From Gemmatimonadota bacterium (lineage in GTDB: Bacteria; Gemmatimonadota; Gemmatimonadetes; Gemmatimonadales; GWC2-71-9), in assembly GCA_049323575.1 (NCBI GenBank), contig JBMOPM010000200.1, forward strand, positions 1 through 41,195: a DNA stretch of 41,195 bases, read 5' to 3'. A program made the translations under genes and the position numbers. The notes beneath the pieces are model-generated. The model had not been told where the DNA came from, searched no databases, and worked only from the letters and a program-made list of their open reading frames with translations. Within the stretch, counting starts at the first letter, position 1; every line of letters begins with the position of its first letter. Shown piece by piece: positions 13,558 through 26,135 of this stretch.

Positions 13558-15126
13558 CTAGCCCCGGCGCCTTCCGCCACCCCCACTCGGCCTGGCGCCA
13601 CCACCACCACCCCCGCCGGGCCGCCGTCCCACGCTCGGCGCCGGCGGCTCTCCCCGAGGACGCACCGGCTGCGCGCGCGGCTCGGCGGTGCGAACGGGAC
13701 CGCGCGGCTCCCAGCCCTGCATGTGCCCGGGCAGCACGCTCCCGCCGCTCTCACCGCGATTCTCCGGCCGCCGCCGAGGCTCCACCGGCCTCGCAGGCCA
13801 AGCCTCGGGCCGCCCGATGCCGCCCGACGGCTCGCCGCCGCGGTCCCGCTCGACGCGGCGCGGCCACTCCGTCTGGCCGCCCTGATCCATCGGCCGCTCG
13901 CGCTCGACGCGGCGCGGCGAAACGGGTTGCTGGTCCTCATCGAACACCGGGCGCGGCTGGATTTCGAGCCGCCGCTGGCCATCGATTGCCGGGCCGATGT
14001 CGACGTGCCGCTCGCGGGAGCGTTCCCGGACATCCGGTCGCGCGGCGCGACCTTCCCCTGCCTCGCGCCCGCGGAAGGACGGACCGACCGCCGGGTCGAG
14101 CCGGCGGCCGCCCGGGGCCACCGGCGGGCCCCCGACACCGTCACCCCAGACCGTCGGGTTGCCGGTGGCGACCCGGCTCCGGAGCACCGTGGGGGCGAAT
14201 ACCGTGTTCTCGGTGCGATCGCCGCTGAACGAGAACACCCGCTCGCGGTAGGGGAACGCGCTGTTGCCGGTGTAGGTGCCGAGCGCCTTGAACCGGTAGT
14301 CGTTCCGGAACCCCAGGCCGCGGTCAAAGCGGCCGATGAGCGGGCGGCCCACGGGGACGAACGGCGGGTAGACCGAGCGATAGCCATGCCCCCACCAGAC
14401 CGGGTAATAGTGCCGGACGGGCCGGTAGAAGAAGGGGTCGTAGAAGTCGTGGAAGAAGAACGGGTCATACCGGTACCACGGCCGGTAGCCCCAGGCGATG
14501 CCGAAGGTGATCGACGGCCCGCAGGACCAGCACCCGAAACCGCCGTAGCCCCAGCCGTACCACGGCGCATAGGGCACGTACGTGGTCGTCGCGACGCCCC
14601 GATCGTAGGGGTAGACCGTGTACGTGATCACGTCGTAATCGAACCCGCCGCGGGACGTCATCTTCCGCACCAGATCGGTCAGATCCGGCTCGGGCTCGCG
14701 CGGCAGCAGGTTGGGCGCGAGCGCCCGGTAGTCCCAATGGTCGCCGGAGATGAAGTCGTCGAAGCGGAACGGATCGAGCGACCACGCGGCGTAGACCATG
14801 CCGTTGCCGTCCGCGTCGGGCGCCCGGAACGTCTCGCGCCCGCCGCGGCTCTTGATCTCGTACTTCTTGCCGCCGCGCACGAAGTTGTCGTCGCCCGGAT
14901 CGACCGGGAACAGGACCCTGAGACGCCCGTCGGGATCGACGTGGAGCACGAGCAGGTAGCCGTCATCAGCGGCCCGAACCTGCACCCGCACCCGGTCGCC
15001 CGGGGTGTAGCGGCCATCGTCATTGAGCCAGATCCGGACCGGCGGATCGTCGGCGGTCGTCGCGACACGCGCCGGCAGGTCGGTCGGCGCCATGAGAGCG
15101 ACAGCGAGCAAAGCCAGGTTCGTCAT
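13558..15126 (-). CDS. secreted DUF4384-domain protein with a long aromatic/Gly-rich then Arg/Pro/Gly-rich tail
   Basis: Signal-like MTNLALLAVALMA; VRIWLN..YTPGDRVRVQVRAADDGYLLVLHVDPDGRLRVLFP is typical of DUF4384. Confidence 0.8.
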   Translation of the reverse strand: MTNLALLAVALMAPTDLPARVATTADDPPVRIWLNDDGRYTPGDRVRVQVRAADDGYLLVLHVDPDGRLRVLFPVDPGDDNFVRGGKKYEIKSRGGRETFRAPDADGNGMVYAAWSLDPFRFDDFISGDHWDYRALAPNLLPREPEPDLTDLVRKMTSRGGFDYDVITYTVYPYDRGVATTTYVPYAPWYGWGYGGFGCWSCGPSITFGIAWGYRPWYRYDPFFFHDFYDPFFYRPVRHYYPVWWGHGYRSVYPPFVPVGRPLIGRFDRGLGFRNDYRFKALGTYTGNSAFPYRERVFSFSGDRTENTVFAPTVLRSRVATGNPTVWGDGVGGPPVAPGGRRLDPAVGPSFRGREAGEGRAARPDVRERSRERHVDIGPAIDGQRRLEIQPRPVFDEDQQPVSPRRVERERPMDQGGQTEWPRRVERDRGGEPSGGIGRPEAWPARPVEPRRRPENRGESGGSVLPGHMQGWEPRGPVRTAEPRAQPVRPRGEPPAPSVGRRPGGGGGGGARPSGGGGRRRG

Positions 15127-15196
15127 AACCCGTCTCCCGAAACACCTGGGAGTGTCCCTGGTGAAGGCCAGAAAGCAGAAATCATCCACCAGGTGA

Positions 15197-15242
15197 AGCG
15201 AGCTTCGTGCCGCGGCGATCCCTATTGTGGATCAAGGAGTTA
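15197..15242 (-). promoter_or_regulatory. candidate sigma54 promoter with an upstream IHF site
   Basis: CGGCACGAAGCTCGCT (GG-N10-GC) at 15197-15212 on the minus strand; GATCAAGGAGTTA at 15230-15242 versus IHF consensus WATCAANNNNTTR. Confidence 0.55.
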
Positions 15243-15345
15243 GATGTTCATGCGCCAACCGGACCGGCCCCCGGCGGACAACCGCGTCATTGTTCTGGGA
15301 CACGCGGTCATGGACGCGGTCGCGGGAGCGGTGTCCTGCCCGCCT

Positions 15346-15771
15346 TCACGGCTTGCTGGTCTCCCGGCCCCCGTTCCAGCGATGCCAGTACATGCGCATC
15401 TCGGTGATCTTCTGCCCGTCCGTCTCGCAGAAGATGGCCCCGCGGGCGTCGACCCATTCGCCGGTCCGGCGGCGGCGGAACGTGACCTTGAATTCGGTGG
15501 AGAACCACAGGCCCGCCGCGTAGATCTCACCCGAGGTGAAGGTGATTTCCGACTGGTGGACCGGCACGTCCCGCCAGAAGAGGCGGATCGCCGCCTCGCC
15601 CCTGAGGGGCGCCGAGAATGGCGTTTCGATGAAGACGGCATCGGGCGTGAACACCGAGACGATCATGTCGGTGTTCCCCTTCATCCAGCCTTTGCCGAAG
15701 GTGTCGATGAGGGTACGGCCCAGCGCGCGCGTCGTGGCCGCGGCCGCATCGGGGGGTGATGAGTTCTCCAT
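15346..15771 (-). CDS. SnoaL/NTF2-like protein
   Basis: FTPDAVFIETPF, LRGEAAIRLFW, KITEMRMYW. Confidence 0.8.
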   Translation of the reverse strand: MENSSPPDAAAATTRALGRTLIDTFGKGWMKGNTDMIVSVFTPDAVFIETPFSAPLRGEAAIRLFWRDVPVHQSEITFTSGEIYAAGLWFSTEFKVTFRRRRTGEWVDARGAIFCETDGQKITEMRMYWHRWNGGRETSKP

Positions 15772-17811: not shown

Positions 17812-19215
17812 CTACTGCCGTTCCCGCCACGTCTCGAAGAACCCCCAGCCCGAATCGGCCACCATCCGGCCCGACAGCCGTCCCTCCAGCCGGAACCGCC
17901 CACGCATCTGACGGAAGGAGCGCCGGAAGCCACCGCTGCCGGTCCCGGTGGTGTGCGTGGAAAGCACGTCCACGCGCACCCGCACGGTGTCCCGATCCCG
18001 CGTGGCGGTGAAGGCGAATGACCGCGTGGATGGTACTTGATAAGTGATCCGCTCGAATCGCAAGACCTGGCGCACGCCGAGCGAGTCGGCGAGCCCGAGG
18101 AAGAGGGGCCGGGCGTCGTGCGCCCCGCTCGCGTCGGTGCGGGCCACGCCGCCGTAGAGCAGATCGAACGCGGTGCCCCGGCCCATGCCCCAATCCCACG
18201 TCACGTTGCGCCAGACGCCCCAGTTGTGATCGTGATAGGCCGGGGCGTCGATGACGTCGCGGCAGCGACCCGCCAGGCAGAATCGGCCGGTGGCCGTGGC
18301 CCTGAGGCCGGGCACGACATAGCCCGACACGAACTCATCGGAGGCCAGCTCCACCGGCGGAAAGAACCGATTGGGCGCCGGCATGACCTCGACCTCGAAC
18401 TCGAGGCCGGGCAACTTGCCATGGAGCGCGTAGCGACCGTCGCGCTGACGCACGGTGCTGGCGCCAAGGGTGACATCGGCGCTTGCGGTGTCGAACGTCA
18501 CCCGGGCCGCGGGCACCCGCGCGGCGAAACGCTCGTGGCGCCCATCGGGCCGACGATGGGTAACGAGGAGCTGGCCGCCCCATCCATCGTTCCCCATCGC
18601 TCCACCGATCAGCCAGGTGATGTGCCACCATTCCTCGGGACCGGCCACCACATTGAAGTAGTGCCACTCGCCCCAGGTCGAGTCGTCACGCGAGGGACGG
18701 TGGAAGCGATCCAGCTCGTCGTAGAGCTGTTGCCGCGTGGGCGTCACCCAGGCGGAGTCGGCCGGCGAATCGGCCCAGCGACCGGCGATCACCTCGAGGC
18801 CCGCCCCCACCGCCGCGGCCCGGCTCGGGATTTCACCACCCGCCCGCGCGGCGATGGTCCGGCCGTTGGCCGAGAGGTAGACCAGCTTGTTCTCGATCGC
18901 CGGCGCCACCGCCGCCACCTGCGCCGCGTGGCGAAGTCCCCCAAGCACCTGGCGCGCAATGAATCGGGCCCGATCGATGCCGAAGAACAGCGCGCCGACG
19001 CCGCCCGAGCGCATCGCCTCGATGTCGATGCCCTGCGGCAGGACGGTCACCTCGCCACCGCCCACCAGCGACACGTCCCGCGATTGGACCAGCATCGCTT
19101 CGCCGACGGACAGGAGCACGATCATCACGCCCACACCGATGGCGTAGCCCAGGAGGAGAAAGAGCGATCGGCGCTTGCGTACCACAAGGTGCCGGAAGGC
19201 GAGGGTGAAGAGCAT
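17812..19215 (-). CDS. MacB/LolC-type permease N-half fused to an AttH/CrtC-like lipocalin domain
   Basis: LAFRHLVVRKRRSLFLLLGYAIGVGVMIVLLS (permease TM1); later HRP, WGEWHYFN, SGYVVP, AYHDHNWG, WDW; no C-terminal permease helices. Confidence 0.75.
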   Translation of the reverse strand: MLFTLAFRHLVVRKRRSLFLLLGYAIGVGVMIVLLSVGEAMLVQSRDVSLVGGGEVTVLPQGIDIEAMRSGGVGALFFGIDRARFIARQVLGGLRHAAQVAAVAPAIENKLVYLSANGRTIAARAGGEIPSRAAAVGAGLEVIAGRWADSPADSAWVTPTRQQLYDELDRFHRPSRDDSTWGEWHYFNVVAGPEEWWHITWLIGGAMGNDGWGGQLLVTHRRPDGRHERFAARVPAARVTFDTASADVTLGASTVRQRDGRYALHGKLPGLEFEVEVMPAPNRFFPPVELASDEFVSGYVVPGLRATATGRFCLAGRCRDVIDAPAYHDHNWGVWRNVTWDWGMGRGTAFDLLYGGVARTDASGAHDARPLFLGLADSLGVRQVLRFERITYQVPSTRSFAFTATRDRDTVRVRVDVLSTHTTGTGSGGFRRSFRQMRGRFRLEGRLSGRMVADSGWGFFETWRERQ

Positions 19216-19219
19216 GAGA

Positions 19220-19942
19220 CTACGGACCCGTCGCCGGCACATGCTCCGACTCTGCCGCGACAGGCTCCGCTTCCGTGATCCGTCCGTCCAGCATCCGGAT
19301 GGTCCGTCGAGCCTCGGCGGCGAGGCGGTCGTCGTGGGTAACGACCACGAGCGTGGCGCCGTCGGCGTTGAGCCTGCGCAAGAGCGTCAGAATCTCCGCG
19401 CCGGTGGCCGCGTCGAGCTCACCCGTGGGTTCGTCGGCCAGCAGGAGCGCGGGCCGGTTGGCCAGGGCCCGGGCGATCGCCACCCGCTGCATCTCGCCGC
19501 CGGAAAGCTGCGTGGCCATGTGGTGCGCCCGATGCGCGAGACCCACGTACTCCAGCAGCTCGAGCGCGCGTCGCCGGCGATCCGCCGGCCGCACCCCCGC
19601 CTCGGCCATCGGCAATTCGACGTTTTCGCGCGCGGTGAGCACCGGCAGCAGGTGAAATCGCTGAAAGACGAACCCGAGCCTGAGCAGCCTGAGCCGGGTG
19701 AGTTCGCGATCGGGCAACGTGTCCACCCGGGTTCCCAGGATCTCCACCGAGCCCGAGGAGGGCGTATCGATGCCGCCGATCAGGTGGAGCAGGGTGGATT
19801 TGCCGCAGCCGGACGGCCCCACGATCGACACGTATTCGCCGGGCTCCACGCTCAGCGACACGCCGCGCAGCGCGTGCACCGTTTCCCCGTGGAGGTGGTA
19901 GTCCTTCCGCAGTTCGCGGCCCACCAGCACCGCGGTGCTCAC
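19220..19942 (-). CDS. ABC ATP-binding protein, LolD/MacB family
   Basis: C-terminal part of ORF 19220..21082 from GTG 19942: GPSGCGKS, GFVFQRFHLL, LSGGEMQRVAIARA, ADEPTGELD. Confidence 0.93.
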   Translation of the reverse strand: MSTAVLVGRELRKDYHLHGETVHALRGVSLSVEPGEYVSIVGPSGCGKSTLLHLIGGIDTPSSGSVEILGTRVDTLPDRELTRLRLLRLGFVFQRFHLLPVLTARENVELPMAEAGVRPADRRRRALELLEYVGLAHRAHHMATQLSGGEMQRVAIARALANRPALLLADEPTGELDAATGAEILTLLRRLNADGATLVVVTHDDRLAAEARRTIRMLDGRITEAEPVAAESEHVPATGP

Positions 19943-21129
19943 ATCGCCTCCGCGCGAAGCGTGGCGGCGATCGGGGCGCGCGCGGCGAGCCACGCGGGAT
20001 AGAGGCCCGCCAGCGCGCCCGTGCCCAGCAGCACGACCGCCGCCTTGGCGAGGGCCGGAGCGTGGGGGACGAAGAACGAGAAATCGGCCGGCAGCCCGGG
20101 AAAGCTCGTGAGGATCGCGTCGAGGTAGCGGGCAGTCACCAGCCCGAGCAGCACGCCGAGAACGCCGCCGAGGAGTGTCAGCACGGTTCCCTCCGCCAGC
20201 ACCTGCCGCACGATGCGGGAACGGCCGATGCCGAGGGCGCGGAGCGTGGCGATCTCGCCCAGCCGTTCGGTGACCGTGACCGTGAGGAGCGTGGCGACGA
20301 GCAGCACGGTGACCACCAGGCTCAACGTGCCGAGAATGGCGGCGAGCTGCCGGAAGTAGATGAGGCGGGCACGAAACTGCGCCGCGAGGCCCGCGAGGCT
20401 GTTGACCTCGAGTGCCGGATACGCCCGCGCCAGGCGCGCCGCGAGCGAGTCGGCCCGCGCGTCGTCCCGGGCCCGGACCATCACGGCGGACGCGCGGTCC
20501 CCTGCCGCCTGGCCCGCGAGCCGCTGCATCACGCGGAGCGTCGTGCCGACCGAGGCCTGGGCTTCGGGATCGTAGAGCCAGCGGACCAGGCCCCGCACCA
20601 CCAGTCGCCGCTCGATGCCCGCCGATGCGAGTTGCGGGTCCAGCCGGCCCACCAGTGTCACCGTGTCCCCAACGCCCGCACCCGTCGCCGCCGCCGCCGG
20701 CTGGCTGAGCAGCAGACCGAGGGTATCTGCCGGCGCGAGATCTGCCCCCGCCTGCAGCTCGTACAATCCCTGGTCGGACGGGTCGATGCCGTAGCCCGTG
20801 AGCGGAACCAGCGCATCGCCCCGCCGGGTGAAGACCGACGCGGCGAGGACGGGCTCTGCGCCCGACACCGCGGGATCGGCCCGGAGCCGCGCGACCAGCG
20901 TAGTCACGTCGCCGATGGTGGCCTCGGTGTCGAATGGGAGCGTGCCCTTGGGGCTGATGCGGATCTGGTAGCCCCGCTCGAGCTGCAGGCGCGCGAACGA
21001 TCCCTCGAGGCTGCCGGCCAGCATCACCATGTCCAGCAGCATCGCCCCGGCGACGGCGATACCGAGCACCGACAGCGCGCACCGCAGCGGATGGCGCCGC
21101 AGGTTCCGGATCCCCCAGGCGAGCGGCAT
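19939..21129 (-). CDS. complete MacB/LolC/FtsX-type ABC permease
   Basis: C-terminal part of ORF 19939..22692 from ATG 21129: RNLRRHPLR-TM1, GVGDTVTL, ERLGEIATLRALG, LYPAWLAAR. Confidence 0.9.
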   Translation of the reverse strand: MPLAWGIRNLRRHPLRCALSVLGIAVAGAMLLDMVMLAGSLEGSFARLQLERGYQIRISPKGTLPFDTEATIGDVTTLVARLRADPAVSGAEPVLAASVFTRRGDALVPLTGYGIDPSDQGLYELQAGADLAPADTLGLLLSQPAAAATGAGVGDTVTLVGRLDPQLASAGIERRLVVRGLVRWLYDPEAQASVGTTLRVMQRLAGQAAGDRASAVMVRARDDARADSLAARLARAYPALEVNSLAGLAAQFRARLIYFRQLAAILGTLSLVVTVLLVATLLTVTVTERLGEIATLRALGIGRSRIVRQVLAEGTVLTLLGGVLGVLLGLVTARYLDAILTSFPGLPADFSFFVPHAPALAKAAVVLLGTGALAGLYPAWLAARAPIAATLRAEAM

Positions 21130-22010
21130 CAGCCCCGGCGCCACAGCACGAGCGGCCGCGTGCGCACCAGCCGCCACGCCGCGAGGCTGCCGGCGCCCAG
21201 GCCGAGAAGCAACGACAGGCTCAGGCTGAAGGCCAGCATGCCGGGCGTGATCAGGGAAAACACGAGCTGCGTGTCGAACATATGCTGGTAACAGGCGTTG
21301 ATGACGGTCTGGGCGAGCCATGCGATGCCCGCGCCGAGTACCGATCCCGCGCCCGCAACGAAGCAGGCCTCGAGCAGGAGGCTCAGGACGATCGTGCGGC
21401 GGCGGACACCGGTGAACCGCATGACCGCCGCGTCCAGCCGCCGCTCCTCCACCTTGAGCAGCATGATGCAGAACAGAAACACCGAGCTGGCCACCGTCGA
21501 GATGACGGCGATGGCGCGATGGAACCGGCTCACCACCGCGAATGTCCGGGACGAGCGAGCCGCGATCTCGCCCGAACGGTAGGCCTGGAAGCCGAAGGCC
21601 AGCTCGTTGAACGCCGCCGCGACGCTGTCCGCACCGGCGCCGCGCCGCAGTGCCACCCCGAAACGGTCCACCCGGTCCGGCGCGCCGAGCAGGGCGGCGA
21701 GGTCCGGCAGGTGAAATCGGGCGTGGTAATCGCGACGGAGGATCGTGGCGGGATCGGCCCTGGGCTCGTAGATCGCCGCGACGATGGCGTCCGCGCGGAG
21801 CGAGTCGGGCGCGGCGCCGAGCCGGACGATGTCCCCGACGCGCACACCGAGCGCCTCGGCGAGGCGGCGCTCCACCGCGACCGGCACGGCCGGCGGCTGA
21901 TACGCCGGCACCGGAGCGGCGCCGGCCAGCGCGAACGCGAGCCGGCCCGCGGTTGGGTAAGTTGCAAGCACCGCGAGCAGGTACCCTTTGATCGAGCGTG
22001 GGTTCCCCAT
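21129..22010 (-). CDS. MacB/LolC-type permease C-half (lacks TM1); start may be GTG 21971
   Basis: LAEALGVRVGDIVRL, EERRLDAAVMRFTG, three C-terminal TMs; N-terminus is signal-peptide-like rather than RNL..R-TM1. Confidence 0.8.
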   Translation of the reverse strand: MGNPRSIKGYLLAVLATYPTAGRLAFALAGAAPVPAYQPPAVPVAVERRLAEALGVRVGDIVRLGAAPDSLRADAIVAAIYEPRADPATILRRDYHARFHLPDLAALLGAPDRVDRFGVALRRGAGADSVAAAFNELAFGFQAYRSGEIAARSSRTFAVVSRFHRAIAVISTVASSVFLFCIMLLKVEERRLDAAVMRFTGVRRRTIVLSLLLEACFVAGAGSVLGAGIAWLAQTVINACYQHMFDTQLVFSLITPGMLAFSLSLSLLLGLGAGSLAAWRLVRTRPLVLWRRG

Positions 22011-22917
22011 GTCCCTCCCCGTCATCATCGACACCGATCCGGGCATCGACGACTGCCTCGCCATCCTGCTGGCTCTGGCCTCGCCCGAAGTCGATGTGCG
22101 CGCGCTGACGATCGTCTACGGCAATACCACGCTCGCGAACGCGACGCGCAACGCGCGGGAGATCGCGCGGCGAGCCCGGAGCGACGTGGCCATCCACCCG
22201 GGCGCGGATCGCCCGCTCGAGCGCCCGCTGGAGATCGCCGCGGAGACACACGGCGAATCGGGCCTGGGCTACGCGGCGGTTCCCGCGGCGACGCGGGTGA
22301 CGCCCAATCCGCTCGCGCTGCTCGAGGCGCTGGAGCATGAGCGCCGGCCCGTCACGCTGGTCAGCCTCGGGCCCCTCACCAACCTGGCGCTGGCGCTGCG
22401 CCACGACGCCGCCCTCGTGCGCGACCGGCTCGCGGCACATGTCGCCATGGCCGGCAATCTCCGCACGGCGGGCAATACCACGCGCTACAGCGAGTTTAAC
22501 GTCTGGTGCGATCCGGAGGCGGCCGCCGAGGTCCACGCCGCCGGGCTGGGCACCGCGTGGGTGGGGTTGGACGTCACGCGGCGCGTCGTGCTCGACGCGC
22601 ATGAGGTCGAGGCGCTGGGCAGCGGCGAACCCGAGGAGCATCGCTCCTGGCTCCGCGATGCGCTGCGGTTCTACGTGGACTTTCACCGCCACCGGGAAGG
22701 GCTGGACGGATGCGTCGTCAACGATCCGCTGCTCATCGCGGGGCTCATCCGGCCCGGCATCATCCGCTATGCCGACGTGCCGATGCGCGTTCGCCTCGCG
22801 GACGATGACGAGCGCGGCCGCACGGCGATGGACGCCACCGGCCCCGCCGCGCGGTGCGCCGTCGACGTCGATGCGGCGGCGGCGCTCGACCTGCTGCGGG
22901 AGCGCGTGTTCTCATGA
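22009..22917 (+). CDS. nucleoside hydrolase (IUNH family)
   Basis: IIDTDPGIDD, HGESGLG, LGPLTNLA, SEFNVWCDPEAA, VGLDVT. Confidence 0.92.
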   Translation: MSLPVIIDTDPGIDDCLAILLALASPEVDVRALTIVYGNTTLANATRNAREIARRARSDVAIHPGADRPLERPLEIAAETHGESGLGYAAVPAATRVTPNPLALLEALEHERRPVTLVSLGPLTNLALALRHDAALVRDRLAAHVAMAGNLRTAGNTTRYSEFNVWCDPEAAAEVHAAGLGTAWVGLDVTRRVVLDAHEVEALGSGEPEEHRSWLRDALRFYVDFHRHREGLDGCVVNDPLLIAGLIRPGIIRYADVPMRVRLADDDERGRTAMDATGPAARCAVDVDAAAALDLLRERVFS

Positions 22918-23870
22918 TCCGCTCGGAAGTCGTGGTCATCGGCGCCGGCGAGATCGGACGCGGCTGGGCGACCCTGGCGGCCGCCCGGGGGCTCGCCGTG
23001 GTGCTCCACGACGTCGACCCGCGGGCGCTCAAGTGGGCGCGGCACGACGTGGCTGCCCGGGTCGAGCGGCTGGTGTCGCTCGGGCGGGCGGCACCGGCGT
23101 CCGCCGGCGAGGGCCTCACGAACCTGCGTACCACATCCGACCTGGCTGATGCCGTGGTCCAGGCCACGCGGGTCGTCGAGGCCACGCCCGAGGAACTGAC
23201 GCCGAAGCGCGAGCTCTTTGCCCGCGTGGAGGCACTGGCTCCCGCCGACGCGCTGCTGCTGAGCAGTTCGAGCGGCTTCCATGCCAGCCGGCTGGGCGCG
23301 CTCATGCGCCGCCCTGAACGCCTCGTCGTGGCACATCCGCTCCATCCGGTGGAGCTGATACCGGTGGTCGAGGTCGTCCCCGGCCCCATGACGGATCAGG
23401 CGCTCGTCCGCCAGACCGTGGAGTTCCTGGAGCGGCTGGGCCAGCTCCCGATCGTGCTGCGCAAGGAGATCGAGGGAAACGCGGTGGGACGCATCACCGC
23501 CGCGGTCTGGCGCGAGGCCATCCACCTCGTGCTGGACGGGGTGCTCGACCCGGGCGAGCTCGACCGGCTCGTCGCCAGCGGCCCCGCCCTCGGCTGGGCG
23601 GCGGCGGGACCGCATCTCACCTATCACCTCGCCGCCAGCGACGCCGGCATCCGCGGCTTCCTCGACCACCTGCTGCCGACCTTCGAGCAGTGGTGGAAAG
23701 CGCTGGCCGGGTGGGACACGCTGTCGGAGGCGGGACGCGAGGAGCTGATCCGGCGGATCGAAGGAGACTACGGGAAGGACATCAAAAGGCTGGCGGAGGA
23801 GCGGGACCGCGTACTGGGGAAGGTGGGGAACAAGGTGAACGAACTGCGCGACCGCGGGCGGGAACAGTAG
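22914..23870 (+). CDS. 3-hydroxyacyl-CoA dehydrogenase family (L-carnitine/L-gulonate dehydrogenase-like)
   Basis: IGAGEIGRGWA, EATPE..K, SSSSG, AHPLHPVELIPVVEVV, KEIEG, WREAIHLV. Confidence 0.88.
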   Translation: MIRSEVVVIGAGEIGRGWATLAAARGLAVVLHDVDPRALKWARHDVAARVERLVSLGRAAPASAGEGLTNLRTTSDLADAVVQATRVVEATPEELTPKRELFARVEALAPADALLLSSSSGFHASRLGALMRRPERLVVAHPLHPVELIPVVEVVPGPMTDQALVRQTVEFLERLGQLPIVLRKEIEGNAVGRITAAVWREAIHLVLDGVLDPGELDRLVASGPALGWAAAGPHLTYHLAASDAGIRGFLDHLLPTFEQWWKALAGWDTLSEAGREELIRRIEGDYGKDIKRLAEERDRVLGKVGNKVNELRDRGREQ

Positions 23871-23906: not shown

Positions 23907-26135
23907 CTAGAAGTCGACCCCGACCCGTACGGCCATATGCCGCCCCATCTCGTAGGCGAAGCCCTTGAAGCGGTTGAGGTGGCGGGCGAAATGGGCATTC
24001 CCGGCGTTGCGCACCGCGAGATCCAGCGTCAGCCGGCGCGGACCCGCGTCCCACGCGAACCCGCTTTCGACATCCACCCTCGTCCATCCCGGCGGCGCCA
24101 CCTCGGCGGGATCCACCCTCGACTGCCTCGCTGCCGTCTCGCCCTTCACGCCGAAGAAGGCAGTGACCGCGCGCGCGGGAGCGAGGTCCACCAGCCGAAT
24201 CCCGTACAGGACGCGCAGCGGCGGCATCCACGGCAACGGGATACCGAGCGACCGATTGGTGCCGCGCACGAAGTCGCCGCCGGCGGTGAGCTGGAGGTGA
24301 TGGCGCGGCCGCCATTCGGCCGAGGCCTCGAAGCCCGTGAGCAGCGCGTCGCCCTGGGCGAACTGGAAGATCTCGAAGCCGCTCCGCGGCTCACGGGCTC
24401 CGGTCGGGCGATAGTAGATGTATCCGCTGATGGCGTTGCGGAAGACGTTCGCGTCCATCCGGAGCGAGCCGGTCTGCACCCGCACGCCGAGATCGACGTT
24501 GAGCGATGTTTCGACCCCCAGCTCCGGATTGCCGAGCTCGTAGGCCAGCGTGCCCTGATGGACGCCGTTGGCGAAGAGTTCCGGGGCCTGCGGCGCCCGG
24601 AACCCGCGCCCCACGTTGGCGACCACTGCCACTGCCTCGCTGGCATGCCAGACCAGCCCCACGTTGCCTGACAACGCCGTCCAGTCCCGCTGCTGCGCTA
24701 CCACGCCAAGGGCGTCGTCACGCTTCACCGTGAGCACGCGGCGGTCGGCCCGCAGACCCAAGGCCAGGTCGAGCGCTCCCACCCGCACCTGCTCGAAGCC
24801 ATACACGCCCACATTCCACCAGCGATAGTCCGGCAGGAAGGGCACGCGGCCGAACCCGCCGAACCACAGCCCCGTGGCCGAGAGGCCGATCGCCCCCTCG
24901 GCGGCACCTAGCGGTGCGTGGAACAATCGCGCGTCCAGCGTGACCGTGCGGGCGAGGAGCCCCGTGGTGGGTTCCGGGGCGCCTTCCGCCGCGAACTCGC
25001 TGCGCCGGTTCGCCTGGAAGCCCGCGCCGAGTTCCAGGCGATGTTCGCCCAGCGGCAGGCGCACGTCGCCGTGCAGGCGATCCGTCACGATGTCCTGGTA
25101 CCCGCTGAACGTGGAGTCGATGCGCGGATCCTCGGCGATGCGCGGCCGCTCCCGCTTTTTCATGTAGAGGAGCTGCGCGCTGCCCCACGCGCCTCGAGAA
25201 CCCACCGTCGCCGAACCGCCGTACATGCCATAGCCGCTGTTCGGCAGCCGACCGGTCGGCATGCGGAGATCGTCACCCAGTTGGCCGGCCAGCGCGGCAC
25301 GCCAGCCGAACCCGCCCGAGGCACCCTCCAGGGCGAGACTGCCGTCGGTCGCGCCGTTGTTGGATACGTAGCCGGCGAGCAGCCGGCCGCGGACGAACCC
25401 CGCCTGGCCGATGGCGTCGGGGACGGCACGCGGTACCACGTTGACCACTCCGCCAATGGCGTCCGAGCCGTAGAGCACGCTCGCGGGACCGCGCACGATC
25501 TCGACCGCGGCCGCGTCCGCCAGCTCGAGGTTCGGCGCATGGTCCTCGCCCCATTGCTGGAACTCCTGGCGCTGGCCGTCGGCCACCACCAGAACGCGGT
25601 TGCCGGTGAGGCCGCGCACCACCGGCCGGCCGAGGGCGGGGCCCAGGCTCTGGCTGTTCACGCCCGGCATGCCCTGCACGGTCTCGCCGAGCGAGGGCGC
25701 CAGCGCGGCGCGCAGGGCTTCGGTGCCAAGCGTTGCGGTGGACTGCGGGGCGTCCATCGTCGAGGTGGGGAGAGCGGAGGCGGAAACCTGCAGCGCGGGC
25801 AGCTCGATCATCGTTGGCTTCATCCGGACTTCGAGCACCAGGGGCTCGCGGCCCAGCCGCACCCGGCGGGTCACCGGCTCGAACCCGACCCGCGCCACGG
25901 CCACGCGATAGGTGCCCTCGGCGAGCCCCGTCATGCGCCAGCGGCCCGCCACGTCGGACGCGGTGCTCCGACCGGCCTCCAGCACCGTGATCCTGGCCTC
26001 GGCGATGGGCGCGCCGGCCGTGTCGGTCACCCGCCCGATGAGCGCTGCGGACTGCGCCGCGAGCGGAGACGCGAGCAGCGTCAGGCAGATGGCGCCGAGC
26101 CGTACCACCCGCGTCCGTGACCGATGGTCGTTCAT
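23907..26135 (-). CDS. TonB-dependent receptor with N-terminal carboxypeptidase-regulatory-like domain, probably for metal uptake
   Basis: Signal peptide, GRVTD, plug GRPVVRGL..NRV, EIVRGPASVLYGSDAIGGVVN, GFRAP..ELFANGVH, C-terminal F. Confidence 0.93.
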   Translation of the reverse strand: MNDHRSRTRVVRLGAICLTLLASPLAAQSAALIGRVTDTAGAPIAEARITVLEAGRSTASDVAGRWRMTGLAEGTYRVAVARVGFEPVTRRVRLGREPLVLEVRMKPTMIELPALQVSASALPTSTMDAPQSTATLGTEALRAALAPSLGETVQGMPGVNSQSLGPALGRPVVRGLTGNRVLVVADGQRQEFQQWGEDHAPNLELADAAAVEIVRGPASVLYGSDAIGGVVNVVPRAVPDAIGQAGFVRGRLLAGYVSNNGATDGSLALEGASGGFGWRAALAGQLGDDLRMPTGRLPNSGYGMYGGSATVGSRGAWGSAQLLYMKKRERPRIAEDPRIDSTFSGYQDIVTDRLHGDVRLPLGEHRLELGAGFQANRRSEFAAEGAPEPTTGLLARTVTLDARLFHAPLGAAEGAIGLSATGLWFGGFGRVPFLPDYRWWNVGVYGFEQVRVGALDLALGLRADRRVLTVKRDDALGVVAQQRDWTALSGNVGLVWHASEAVAVVANVGRGFRAPQAPELFANGVHQGTLAYELGNPELGVETSLNVDLGVRVQTGSLRMDANVFRNAISGYIYYRPTGAREPRSGFEIFQFAQGDALLTGFEASAEWRPRHHLQLTAGGDFVRGTNRSLGIPLPWMPPLRVLYGIRLVDLAPARAVTAFFGVKGETAARQSRVDPAEVAPPGWTRVDVESGFAWDAGPRRLTLDLAVRNAGNAHFARHLNRFKGFAYEMGRHMAVRVGVDF

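What the first reader, a model, noticed from the sequence alone, without database searches (positions are those of the whole stretch)
17812..22010. Split-permease type VII (MacB/LolCDE-like) ABC system: best candidate for an undescribed system
Seen: a four-gene operon ordered permease C-half, complete permease, ATPase, permease N-half fusion. Aligned by eye to the complete permease, the N-half covers TM1 through GLEVIAGRWADSPAD (versus GLYELQAGADLAPAD). The C-half begins with the very next segment, VAVERRLAEALGVRVGDIVRL (versus LLLSQPAAAATGAGVGDTVTL), and runs through TM2-4. The halves are complementary, sit at opposite ends of the operon in reversed order, and both are open frames. The C-half has a signal-like N-terminus that would export its periplasmic half. 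Known: type VII transporters need two 4-TM permease units, and AttEFGH/YbbAP-like loci encode an AttH partner as a separate gene. Inference: a three-chain membrane complex in which the second permease is reassembled from two polypeptides, freeing a periplasmic terminus to carry a tethered cargo-binding or enzyme domain.
Basis: partly seen in the sequence, partly recalled or inferred. Interest (0 to 1): 0.88.

Follow-up and report, generated by a model that had tools for sequence, protein, structure and literature searches.

The report
Split ABC permease carrying AttH-like domain
A conserved four-gene operon of Gemmatimonadota encodes a MacB/LolC-type ABC machine in which one membrane subunit is cut in two inside its periplasmic domain, and one piece carries a lipid-enzyme-like barrel domain, an arrangement I could not find described.

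Summary
On the minus strand lie four overlapping or abutting genes.
- A (21129-22010): signal-like N-terminus, second half of a MacB-type periplasmic domain, TM2-4.
- B (19939-21129): a complete 4-TM permease.
- C (19220-19942): a LolD/MacB-like ATPase.
- D (17812-19215): canonical TM1, first half of the periplasmic domain, then a 300-residue all-beta domain.

Pfam MacB_PCD covers positions 1 to 111-114 in D-family proteins and 118-122 to 206 in A-family proteins. B aligns to A from B residue 138 (hhalign 99.1%). Hydropathy gives 1 + 3 TM segments against 4 in B. The cut falls inside the Sabre subdomain.

D's C-terminal domain has the AttH/CrtC double-barrel fold (Z 22-25). It keeps that family's Asp and Trp-x-Trp motif as invariant residues.

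The order A-B-C-D holds in 59 of 59 public loci with enough upstream DNA and in 6 of 6 loci from other families of the class. A and D co-occur in 12 genomes of 41. No unsplit or fused form was found. A relative of the same family has the canonical form instead: ATPase, fused double permease, separate AttH.

Physical reassembly is inferred; the pair prediction gave only weak support. I rate it a new variant of a known kind, interest about 0.65.

The parts
21129..22010 (-). Gene A: C-terminal fragment of a MacB/LolC-type permease (293 aa from ATG 22010; alternative start GTG 21971 gives 280 aa)
   Evidence: Pfam FtsX at residues 166-284. hhalign to B 138-386, prob 99.1. Model residues 39-293 align to MacB 396-642 and LolC 138-398. 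46 of 46 family members hit FtsX.
21891..22010 (-). A residues 1-40: signal-like, poorly conserved hydrophobic N-terminus and linker
   Evidence: The orthologues' N-termini are short hydrophobic stretches, often followed by A-x-A or AQ-like motifs. No 19-residue window reaches TM strength in the window's copy. pLDDT is 53-71. Cleavage was not tested.
21531..21890 (-). A residues 41-160: second half of the periplasmic core domain (rest of Sabre plus second Porter motif)
   Evidence: A-family proteins match MacB_PCD profile positions 118-122 to 206. In A. actinomycetemcomitans MacB, residue 396 lies inside Sabre 347-465.
21159..21524 (-). A residues 163-284: TM2-TM4 with the cytoplasmic coupling-helix motif
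   Evidence: Three hydropathy peaks at 163-188, 206-233 and 249-278. The motif residues E189, R190, R191, D193, A195, R198 and G201 are invariant. Reading them as the coupling helix is by eye.
19939..21129 (-). Gene B: complete 4-TM MacB/LolC/LolE-like permease (396 aa)
   Evidence: Pfam MacB_PCD 18-235 and FtsX 265-386. Full-length alignment to LolF, LolE and MacB chains. Four TM peaks.
19220..19942 (-). Gene C: ABC ATPase of the LolD/MacB/FtsE/YbbA type (240 aa)
   Evidence: ABC_tran E 1.1e-34. LolD 231.5 bits against a cut-off of 307.75, MacB NBD 229.3 bits, YbbA 212.9 bits.
17812..19215 (-). Gene D: N-terminal permease fragment fused to an AttH/CrtC-like domain (467 aa)
18751..19215 (-). 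D residues 1-155: cytoplasmic N-terminal motif, TM1 (15-45) and first half of the periplasmic core domain
   Evidence: MacB_PCD positions 1-111. TM1 of solved MacB-type permeases matches D 3-60 (E 0.012 and 0.11). One TM peak. pLDDT is below 50 for residues 42-128 when folded alone.
17815..18726 (-). D residues 164-467: periplasmic AttH/CrtC-type double beta-barrel domain
   Evidence: VIA-align Z 25.0 (CghA), 24.3 (AttH 2ich_B, rmsd 3.4, 279 aligned), 23.0 (25-phosphosteroid lyase), 22.7 (kievitone hydratase). The next unrelated row has Z 8.6. Foldseek 2ich_A E 3.4e-12. Atlas clusters carry CrtC/Lipocalin_9.
18217..18237 (-). D residues 327-333 (YHDHNWG), invariant in 46 sequences and followed by invariant W340 and W342
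   Evidence: Invariant columns. hhalign places D329 on AttH D226, and W340/W342 on AttH W241/W243 (E 0.011, weak).

Best explanation
The operon encodes a type VII (MacB/LolCDE/YbbAP-like) ABC machine related to AttEFGH systems. Its membrane part is built from three polypeptides.

B is one complete 4-TM permease unit. The second unit is made of two fragments. D supplies TM1 and the first half of the periplasmic core domain. A supplies the second half of that domain and TM2-4.

The cut lies inside the Sabre subdomain, so both Sabre and Porter would be rebuilt from strands of two chains. Because the cut is periplasmic, A needs its own export signal and has one. The C-terminus of D's fragment is free in the periplasm. 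It is used to tether an AttH/CrtC-type double-barrel domain next to the place where other type VII systems hand over cargo.

Two copies of the ATPase C would drive mechanotransmission through A's and B's coupling helices. I propose that the machine pulls a hydrophobic molecule out of the outer leaflet of the inner membrane and feeds it to the tethered barrel. The molecule is most likely an isoprenoid-type lipid. The barrel most likely modifies it by acid/carbocation chemistry such as hydration, rather than only holding it.

Shown: gene structure, complementary homology, fold of the barrel, conservation and co-occurrence. Inferred: assembly of A+D (about 0.75), stoichiometry A:B:C2:D, hand-over to the barrel (about 0.5), catalysis (about 0.35-0.4), and substrate class.
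For: Complementary coverage of one domain model. D family covers MacB_PCD 1 to 111-114 and A family covers 118-122 to 206. B 138-386 aligns to A 43-285 with prob 99.1. B 1-120 aligns to D 1-133 with E 0.0039.

TM counts are 1 + 3 against 4 in B.

A's model aligns from residue 39-41 to A. actinomycetemcomitans MacB 396, LolC 138, LolE 143 and YbbP 122. Sabre is 347-465 in that MacB (review passages).

D has the canonical N-terminal motif and TM1. A orthologues have short signal-like N-termini instead.

The order A-B-C-D is kept in 10 of 10 loci. It is kept in 59 of 59 loci with at least 3 kb upstream of D (21 further loci were too short). It is kept in 6 of 6 loci from families f5, f7 and f8 at about 40% identity. 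These sets overlap in part, and kin are not independent.

Co-occurrence. A is in 12 of 41 relatives and D is in the same 12. D is also in one 72%-complete genome, as a contig-end fragment.

Pair prediction, A 38-293 with D 1-162. The verdict was weak support: score 0.58, best of 3 controls 0.01. The mark was reached by 58 of 80 solved complexes and 2 of 110 mismatched pairs. A score of 0.60 or under was seen in only 7 of those 80, and in both mismatches that passed. The runs agree in at least 94% of contacts, and the partner's pLDDT is at least 71, against 57 when A was replaced. MacB and LolCDE structures are solved, so this pass may reflect likeness to them.

The barrel. Z is 22-25 to AttH, pericyclases, kievitone hydratase and 25-phosphosteroid lyase. 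E183, W184, Y186, D329, W332, W340 and W342 are invariant. They fall on the EWWY and D...WDW motifs of canonical AttH. In R. gelatinosus CrtC, D268, W110, W283 and W285 are the residues needed for catalysis (passages of PMC12402844). AttH-like enzymes hydrate isoprenoid double bonds, including those of membrane lipids (passages of bioRxiv 10.1101/2025.10.20.683597).

YbbAP-TesA is a precedent for a type VII extractor feeding a periplasmic enzyme (abstract and passages of PMC12646458).
Against: No experiment shows that A and D bind. The pair prediction is only 'weak support', and such splits tend to pass by resemblance to solved structures.

D's similarity to the N-half of a permease is weak by every sequence measure. 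Pfam gives 17.8 bits against a cut-off of 27. hhalign gives prob 8.6%. BLASTP gives nothing. 24 of 46 D-family members give no MacB_PCD hit at E <= 0.01. D residues 42-128 fold poorly alone.

The barrel hits no Pfam CrtC or Lipocalin_9 model. Its motif alignment to AttH has E 0.011 and prob 3.9%.

Members of this fold include non-hydratases such as pericyclases and a lyase, and the solved AttH entry is titled only 'putative AttH'. The chemistry is therefore open.

30 of 67 A N-termini also reach a 19-residue hydropathy of 1.6, so an uncleaved anchor is not excluded.

No conserved neighbour gene points to a substrate. One locus (L066) has C-D without A-B directly upstream.
Confidence: 0.62

Rival explanations
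1. The same split, reassembled machine, but the tethered barrel is a passive acceptor or chaperone. It would be a covalently attached counterpart of LolA that shields an extracted lipid or lipoprotein, and not an enzyme.
For: The solved AttH entry (2ICH) is titled only 'putative AttH'. LolCDE hands cargo to a soluble barrel protein (abstracts). The barrel hits no curated CrtC HMM.
Against: The Asp and Trp residues that are catalytic in CrtC are invariant in 46 sequences spanning 44-68% identity. A tethered carrier cannot shuttle cargo away from the membrane.
Confidence: 0.25
2. A and D do not rebuild one permease unit. A is a truncated 3-TM (or 4-TM with an uncleaved anchor) partner of B. D is an independent single-pass accessory protein whose N-terminal likeness to permeases is a relic.
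For: D's permease similarity is weak. The pair prediction is only weak support. 30 of 67 A N-termini reach TM-like hydropathy over 19 residues.
Against: Coverage of one Pfam model is exactly complementary and non-overlapping. D keeps the canonical N-terminal motif and TM1, with many invariant residues in positions 1-155. Co-occurrence and synteny are strict down to about 40% identity. The partner's pLDDT rises from 57 to 72 with A present. In the known fold, TM1 is one of the two stalk helices that carry the Porter subdomain (review passages).
Confidence: 0.15
3. B forms a B2C2 homodimeric transporter that does the work. A and D are regulators or decaying remnants of a second permease.
For: B alone has every element of a type VII half-transporter. 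Homodimers exist in the family (review passages).
Against: A and D are open frames in every locus examined. Both have many invariant residues, including A's coupling-helix-like motif. Thousands of database clusters keep the same lengths. Translational coupling by overlapping stops and starts suggests joint expression.
Confidence: 0.07
4. Assembly error, a recent local rearrangement, or a pseudogene.
For: None found beyond one odd locus (L066).
Against: 59 of 59, 10 of 10 and 6 of 6 loci keep the arrangement. Contigs of three studies span the stretch without gaps. No unsplit relative was found.
Confidence: 0.01

Closest known systems
AttEFGH-type loci (Agrobacterium fabrum C58 plasmid At; also an unnamed same-family relative, G057)
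   Same: A LolD/YbbA-like ATPase, FtsX-type permease units and an AttH-fold periplasmic protein are encoded together. In A. fabrum this is an ATPase, two overlapping FtsX ORFs of 420 and 477 aa, and a 355-aa CrtC+Lipocalin_9 protein. In G057 it is a 227-aa ATPase, an 855-aa permease with 2 FtsX and 2 MacB_PCD stretches, and a 379-aa CrtC+Lipocalin_9 protein.
   Different: In those loci both permease units are whole and AttH is a separate secreted protein, and the gene order is ATPase, permease, AttH. Here one unit is cut inside its periplasmic domain, the barrel is fused to the N-fragment, the order is C-fragment, whole permease, ATPase, N-fragment+barrel, and the barrel is too divergent for the Pfam models. 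I found no paper that reports a function for AttEFGH.
YbbAP-TesA of E. coli
   Same: A type VII ABC extractor that passes hydrophobic compounds from the inner membrane to a periplasmic lipid enzyme (abstract and passages of PMC12646458). A's model aligns to YbbP 122-371 (Z 7.9, rmsd 7.0, 192 aligned).
   Different: YbbP is one fused polypeptide with two periplasmic domains, and TesA is a separate hydrolase. The NCBIfam YbbP model scores 19.9 bits on B against a cut-off of 999.
LolCDE-LolA
   Same: A heterodimer of two 4-TM units plus two ATPases, with hand-over of a lipid-bearing cargo to a periplasmic barrel protein. B aligns over its full length to LolF and LolE. A aligns to LolC 138-398 and LolE 143-414.
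   Different: The equivalog cut-offs are far from met: lolCE 58.5 against 362, LolD 231.5 against 307.75. A better LolC/E-like gene lies elsewhere in the genome (241 bits). The operon is present in only 51 of 151 sampled genomes of the phylum. The acceptor is tethered, not soluble.
MacB (MacAB-TolC)
   Same: The same permease fold and Porter/Sabre periplasmic domain. A's TM part matches MacB 524-670.
   Different: MacB is a homodimer with a fused NBD and works with an adaptor and an outer-membrane duct. No adaptor or duct gene is in the operon. A 2018 review of topologies in this family lists fused, separate, homo- and heterodimeric forms but no split inside the periplasmic domain (passages).
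CrtC, kievitone hydratase and the AttH-like hydroxy-GDGT synthase
   Same: The same double-barrel fold. The Asp and Trp-x-Trp constellation is conserved. These enzymes hydrate isoprenoid double bonds, including those of membrane lipids (passages).
   Different: There is no significant HMM match. The loop between the Asp and WxW is four residues shorter. No activity is known. The domain is anchored to an ABC permease fragment.

Membership tests
Type VII (MacB/FtsX-type) ABC systems | An ATPase of the MacB/LolD/FtsE/YbbA kind | tested here: met
   ABC_tran E 1.1e-34. The best NCBIfam rows are LolD, MacB NBD, FtsE and YbbA, all below their equivalog cut-offs.
Type VII (MacB/FtsX-type) ABC systems | A permease unit with TM1, a periplasmic core domain, then TM2-4 (FtsX domain) in one chain | tested here: met
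   Met by B. Not met by A or D alone. Together A and D cover the unit without overlap.
Type VII (MacB/FtsX-type) ABC systems | Two permease units and two ATPases in one complex | not testable with these tools
   Only the A-D pair was modelled, with weak support: 0.58 against a best control of 0.01.
Type VII (MacB/FtsX-type) ABC systems | Porter and Sabre subdomain fold of the periplasmic domain | tested here: inconclusive
   A's part aligns to MacB and LolC periplasmic and TM regions (Z 9.7-11.0, rmsd 8.6-14). D's part is modelled at pLDDT below 50.
AttEFGH | ATPase, FtsX-type permease units and an AttH-fold protein in one operon | tested here: met
.
AttEFGH | AttH recognised by Pfam CrtC (PF07143) plus Lipocalin_9 (PF17186) | tested here: not met
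   No hit at E <= 0.1 for D. 0 of 46 family members hit at E <= 0.01. The fold is nevertheless the same (Z 24.3 to 2ich_B).
AttEFGH | AttH as a separate secreted protein, with whole permease units | tested here: not met
   The barrel is fused to TM1 and the N-fragment, and the second permease unit is split.
LolCDE | Scores above the equivalog cut-offs for LolC/E and LolD | tested here: not met
   58.5 against 362.45, and 231.5 against 307.75. A stronger LolC/E-like match lies on another contig.
YbbAP-TesA | A fused double permease (YbbP) and a TesA-type hydrolase partner | tested here: not met
   The YbbP model scores 19.9 against 999. The permease units are separate chains. No hydrolase gene is in the operon.
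CrtC-type cofactor-independent hydratases | A catalytic Asp and the Trp residues that stabilise the carbocation | tested here: inconclusive
   D329, W184, W340 and W342 are invariant. They align to AttH D226, W241 and W243 only weakly (E 0.011). The link to CrtC D268, W283 and W285 rests on spacing and on passages of PMC12402844. Activity cannot be tested here.

The most novel reading that the evidence does not exclude
The operon encodes a self-contained periplasmic lipid-modifying machine. An ATP-driven extractor lifts an isoprenoid lipid (carotenoid, hopanoid, polyprenol or similar) out of the inner membrane and delivers it to a covalently tethered, catalytically active AttH-type hydratase. 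The three-chain membrane part arose by an operon-level circular permutation of a permease that carried the barrel inside its Sabre subdomain: tandem duplication followed by loss of the outer halves. This would be the first type VII ABC system with an enzyme built into a permease subunit, and the first with a permease unit assembled from two gene products.
Probability: 0.3. Interest if true: 0.8.

Novelty: new variant of a known kind. Interest (0 to 1): 0.65.

Why it matters
Type VII ABC systems are thought to do mechanical work in the periplasm rather than carry substrates across the membrane. What the widespread AttH-associated systems do is unknown.

Here evolution has tied the AttH-like barrel covalently to the periplasmic domain of the permease. 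That is strong genetic evidence that the two act directly on each other, as TesA does with YbbAP.

The split also shows that the Porter/Sabre domain and the 4-TM bundle can be built from two chains. This matters for ideas on how the fold assembles, and it offers a natural split system for engineering.

The family has thousands of database clusters in soil and freshwater Gemmatimonadota and is mostly labelled 'hypothetical protein'. A function assigned here would annotate many genes.

Tried and rejected
BLASTP of B against D found nothing (best E 1.3). Only profile methods see D's N-half.

Search for unsplit or fused forms:
- 479 representatives matched D at E <= 0.001. Among the best 150, none ends in a permease C-half. 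I scanned ten of unusual length or low identity. Three carry ABC_tran in front of the D part (P0329, P0302, P0322), and one carries a beta-lactamase domain after it (P0294). These are probably read-through gene calls or ATPase fusions.
- The 'longer' search with A gave one weak hit (932 aa, 22% identity, E 1.4e-5). The tool itself calls a blank there weak evidence.

Conserved neighbours that might name a substrate: only lineage-level synteny was seen, such as regulator- and transporter-like ORFs upstream, read by eye.

Expression: no RNA holder listed. One run guessed to be RNA holds short identical contigs over all four genes, but this cannot be read as transcription.

The canonical CrtC model was not found in the window's own genome (92% complete). 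It was found in 2 of 61 sampled genomes of the phylum.

Supplementary files were not consulted. The figures on CrtC active-site residues cited in PMC12402844 are in supplements I did not see.

I considered inteins or trans-splicing and rejected them. A starts with an export signal and D ends in a conserved barrel strand.

Full report
WHAT IS THERE

The window has about 70% G+C. On the minus strand lie four genes that overlap or abut.
- A: 21129-22010
- B: 19939-21129
- C: 19220-19942
- D: 17812-19215

The A stop overlaps the B start, the B stop overlaps the C start, and D starts 5 nt after the C stop.

Pfam and NCBIfam results:
- A has only the FtsX domain (residues 166-284).
- B has MacB_PCD plus FtsX.
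- C has ABC_tran and scores best against LolD, the MacB NBD, FtsE and YbbA, all below their equivalog cut-offs.
- D has only the first 111 of 207 positions of MacB_PCD, at a sub-threshold score (E 0.0042), and nothing for its last 300 residues.

The flanks are a convergent DUF885 gene and a divergent nucleoside hydrolase. They are not conserved with the operon.

ARE THE TWO FRAGMENTS COMPLEMENTARY?

BLASTP sees only the TM part of A in B (E 3e-6) and nothing for D. Profiles are clear for A and weak for D.
- B 138-386 aligns to A 43-285 (prob 99.1, E 1.8e-18).
- B 1-120 aligns to D 1-133 (prob 8.6, E 0.0039).

The cleanest result comes from Pfam on relatives.
- Five A-family proteins match MacB_PCD positions 118-122 to 206. 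Two of them score above the gathering score.
- Two D-family proteins match positions 1 to 112-114.
- 22 of 46 D-family members and 26 of 46 A-family members hit MacB_PCD at E <= 0.01. It is the only family that D members hit. 46 of 46 A members hit FtsX.

Further points:
- D's first 45-60 residues match the N-terminal motif and TM1 of solved MacB-type permeases (E 0.012 and 0.11).
- Hydropathy gives one TM segment in D, three in A and four in B.
- A's AlphaFold model (pLDDT 81.6) aligns from residue 39-41 onward to A. actinomycetemcomitans MacB 396-642, LolC 138-398, LolE 143-414 and YbbP 122-371 (Z 7.9-11.0).
- In that MacB the Sabre subdomain is 347-465, flanked by the two Porter motifs (review passages). 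The cut therefore lies inside Sabre. Each fragment carries one Porter motif and part of Sabre.

A orthologues begin with short, poorly conserved hydrophobic stretches that look like export signals. 62 of 67 have a strong 11-residue core, and the median uncharged run is 13 residues. However, 30 of 67 also reach TM-like hydropathy over 19 residues. A signal is what a fragment whose N-terminus must be periplasmic would need.

THE EXTRA DOMAIN

D's model (pLDDT 74.1) is poor for residues 42-128 and confident and all-beta for 180-467. Residues 164-467 match these structures (Foldseek E 3.4e-12 for 2ich_A):
- CghA, Fsa2 and Phm7 pericyclases: Z 23.7-25.0
- putative AttH 2ICH: Z 24.3, rmsd 3.4, 279 residues aligned
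- 25-phosphosteroid lyase: Z 23.0
- kievitone hydratase: Z 22.3-22.7
- next unrelated row: Z 8.6

The protein atlas gives CrtC/Lipocalin_9 clusters.

Invariant residues in 46 sequences include E183, W184, Y186, D329, W332, W340 and W342. A weak profile alignment (E 0.011; E 0.0083) puts D329 on the invariant Asp of canonical AttH proteins. It puts W340 and W342 on their W-D-W motif, with a loop four residues shorter.

In R. gelatinosus CrtC the residues needed for catalysis are D268, W110, W283 and W285 (passages). AttH-like enzymes hydrate isoprenoid double bonds, including those of archaeal membrane lipids (passages).

CONSERVATION

- D has 3053 database clusters at E <= 0.001 among 8000 candidates scored. 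The best 120 are 465-571 aa at 59-66% identity. Every organism-bearing source name among them is Gemmatimonadales or Gemmatimonadetes.
- A has 2004 such clusters. The best 120 are 250-304 aa.
- In a 1.84-billion-protein library D has 479 relatives. The full-length ones are about 450-510 aa, down to 27% identity.
- Of 80 public loci kept from 312 relatives, 79 are labelled Gemmatimonadota. One 3.3-kb contig is labelled Acidimicrobiales.
- The order A-B-C-D holds in 10 of 10 loci from relatives and in 59 of 59 loci with at least 3 kb upstream of D. 21 further loci were too short. One of these, L066, has an unrelated transporter ORF upstream of C-D.
- It also holds in 6 of 6 loci from three other families of the class, at about 40% identity.
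- The sets overlap in part, and relatives are not independent.
- D is present in 51 of 151 sampled genomes of the phylum, one of them unpublished. Among 41 relatives, A occurs in 12 and D in the same 12. D also occurs as a contig-end fragment in a 72%-complete genome.
- Contigs from three studies span the whole stretch with 0-2 differences.

COMPARISON WITH THE CANONICAL FORM

In A. fabrum C58 the att region has an ATPase, two overlapping FtsX ORFs and a separate 355-aa CrtC+Lipocalin_9 protein.

In G057, a genome of the window's own family that lacks D, the operon is a 227-aa ATPase, an 855-aa permease with two FtsX and two MacB_PCD stretches, and a separate 379-aa AttH with a signal peptide. 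The split form is therefore a derived variant of an AttEFGH-like system.

The window's genome has a better LolC/E-like gene elsewhere, so this operon is not the Lol system.

DO THE FRAGMENTS ASSEMBLE?

The pair A 38-293 with D 1-162 scored 0.58 against a best control of 0.01. The tool's verdict was weak support. The mark was reached by 58 of 80 solved complexes and 2 of 110 mismatched pairs. A score of 0.60 or under was seen in only 7 of those 80, and in both mismatches that passed. The runs agree in at least 94% of contacts. The partner's pLDDT was at least 71, against 57 when A was replaced. Because MacB and LolCDE structures are solved, this pass may reflect likeness to them.

Together with the complementary coverage, the TM count, A's conserved coupling-helix-like motif (read by eye) and the strict co-occurrence, I put reassembly at about 0.75.

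MECHANISM AND NOVELTY

The most likely working model is an A:B:C2:D extractor that hands a hydrophobic, probably isoprenoid, molecule to the tethered barrel. This is analogous to YbbAP-TesA and to LolCDE-LolA. The barrel is more likely catalytic than passive because the family's catalytic residues are invariant, but the chemistry and the substrate are unknown.

I found no description of a permease split inside the periplasmic domain, or of an AttH fusion. Four literature searches found none. The 2018 review's list of topologies does not include one (passages).

I rate it a new variant of a known kind, interest 0.65.

Noticed in passing
L060, L068, L069, L074, L077, L078, L085 (between C and D): A subset of Gemmatimonadaceae-labelled loci carries an extra conserved stretch of about 200 aa between the ATPase and D. 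In L069 and L078 it is in frame with the ATPase, as a C-terminal extension. It has no Pfam hit.
   Followed up: partly
L045:2678-4206 and L052:2147-3849: An ECF sigma factor (Sigma70_r2/r4) and an RskA-type anti-sigma factor are inserted between B and C in L045 (Pfam). L052 carries look-alike ORFs at the same place (by eye). The insertion splits the operon.
   Followed up: partly
L109 (G128:C9), between C and D: About 1.6 kb separates the ATPase and D in this locus from another family. The content was not examined.
   Followed up: no
L066:1-2100: C and D are preceded by an unrelated transporter-like ORF instead of A and B. This may be a rearrangement or a chimeric 5-kb contig.
   Followed up: no
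window 21971-22064: A's ATG at 22010 abuts the ATG (22009) of the divergent nucleoside hydrolase gene, so there is no intergenic space for two promoters. The stored gene call starts A at GTG 21971.
   Followed up: partly
window 13723-15759 (+), and L016, L018, L019 downstream of D: Two ORFs without Pfam hits (506 and 171 aa) are conserved downstream of, and convergent to, D in three close relatives. In the window a DUF885 gene lies between them and D.
   Followed up: partly
upstream of A in many of L026-L105: Regulator-like (DtxR/MntR-type, by eye) and Nramp-like ORFs recur on the same strand upstream of A, in up to 36 loci. This is probably lineage synteny rather than function.
   Followed up: no
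P0329 (704 aa), P0322, P0302: Some database proteins join an ABC_tran part to the D family in one gene call. These are either true MacB-like NBD fusions or read-through calls across the 5-nt gap.
   Followed up: partly
window 23907-26135 (-): A TonB-dependent receptor with a carboxypeptidase-regulatory-like N-domain lies 2 kb upstream of the operon region. A 3-hydroxyacyl-CoA dehydrogenase lies at 22854-23870 (+).
   Followed up: no
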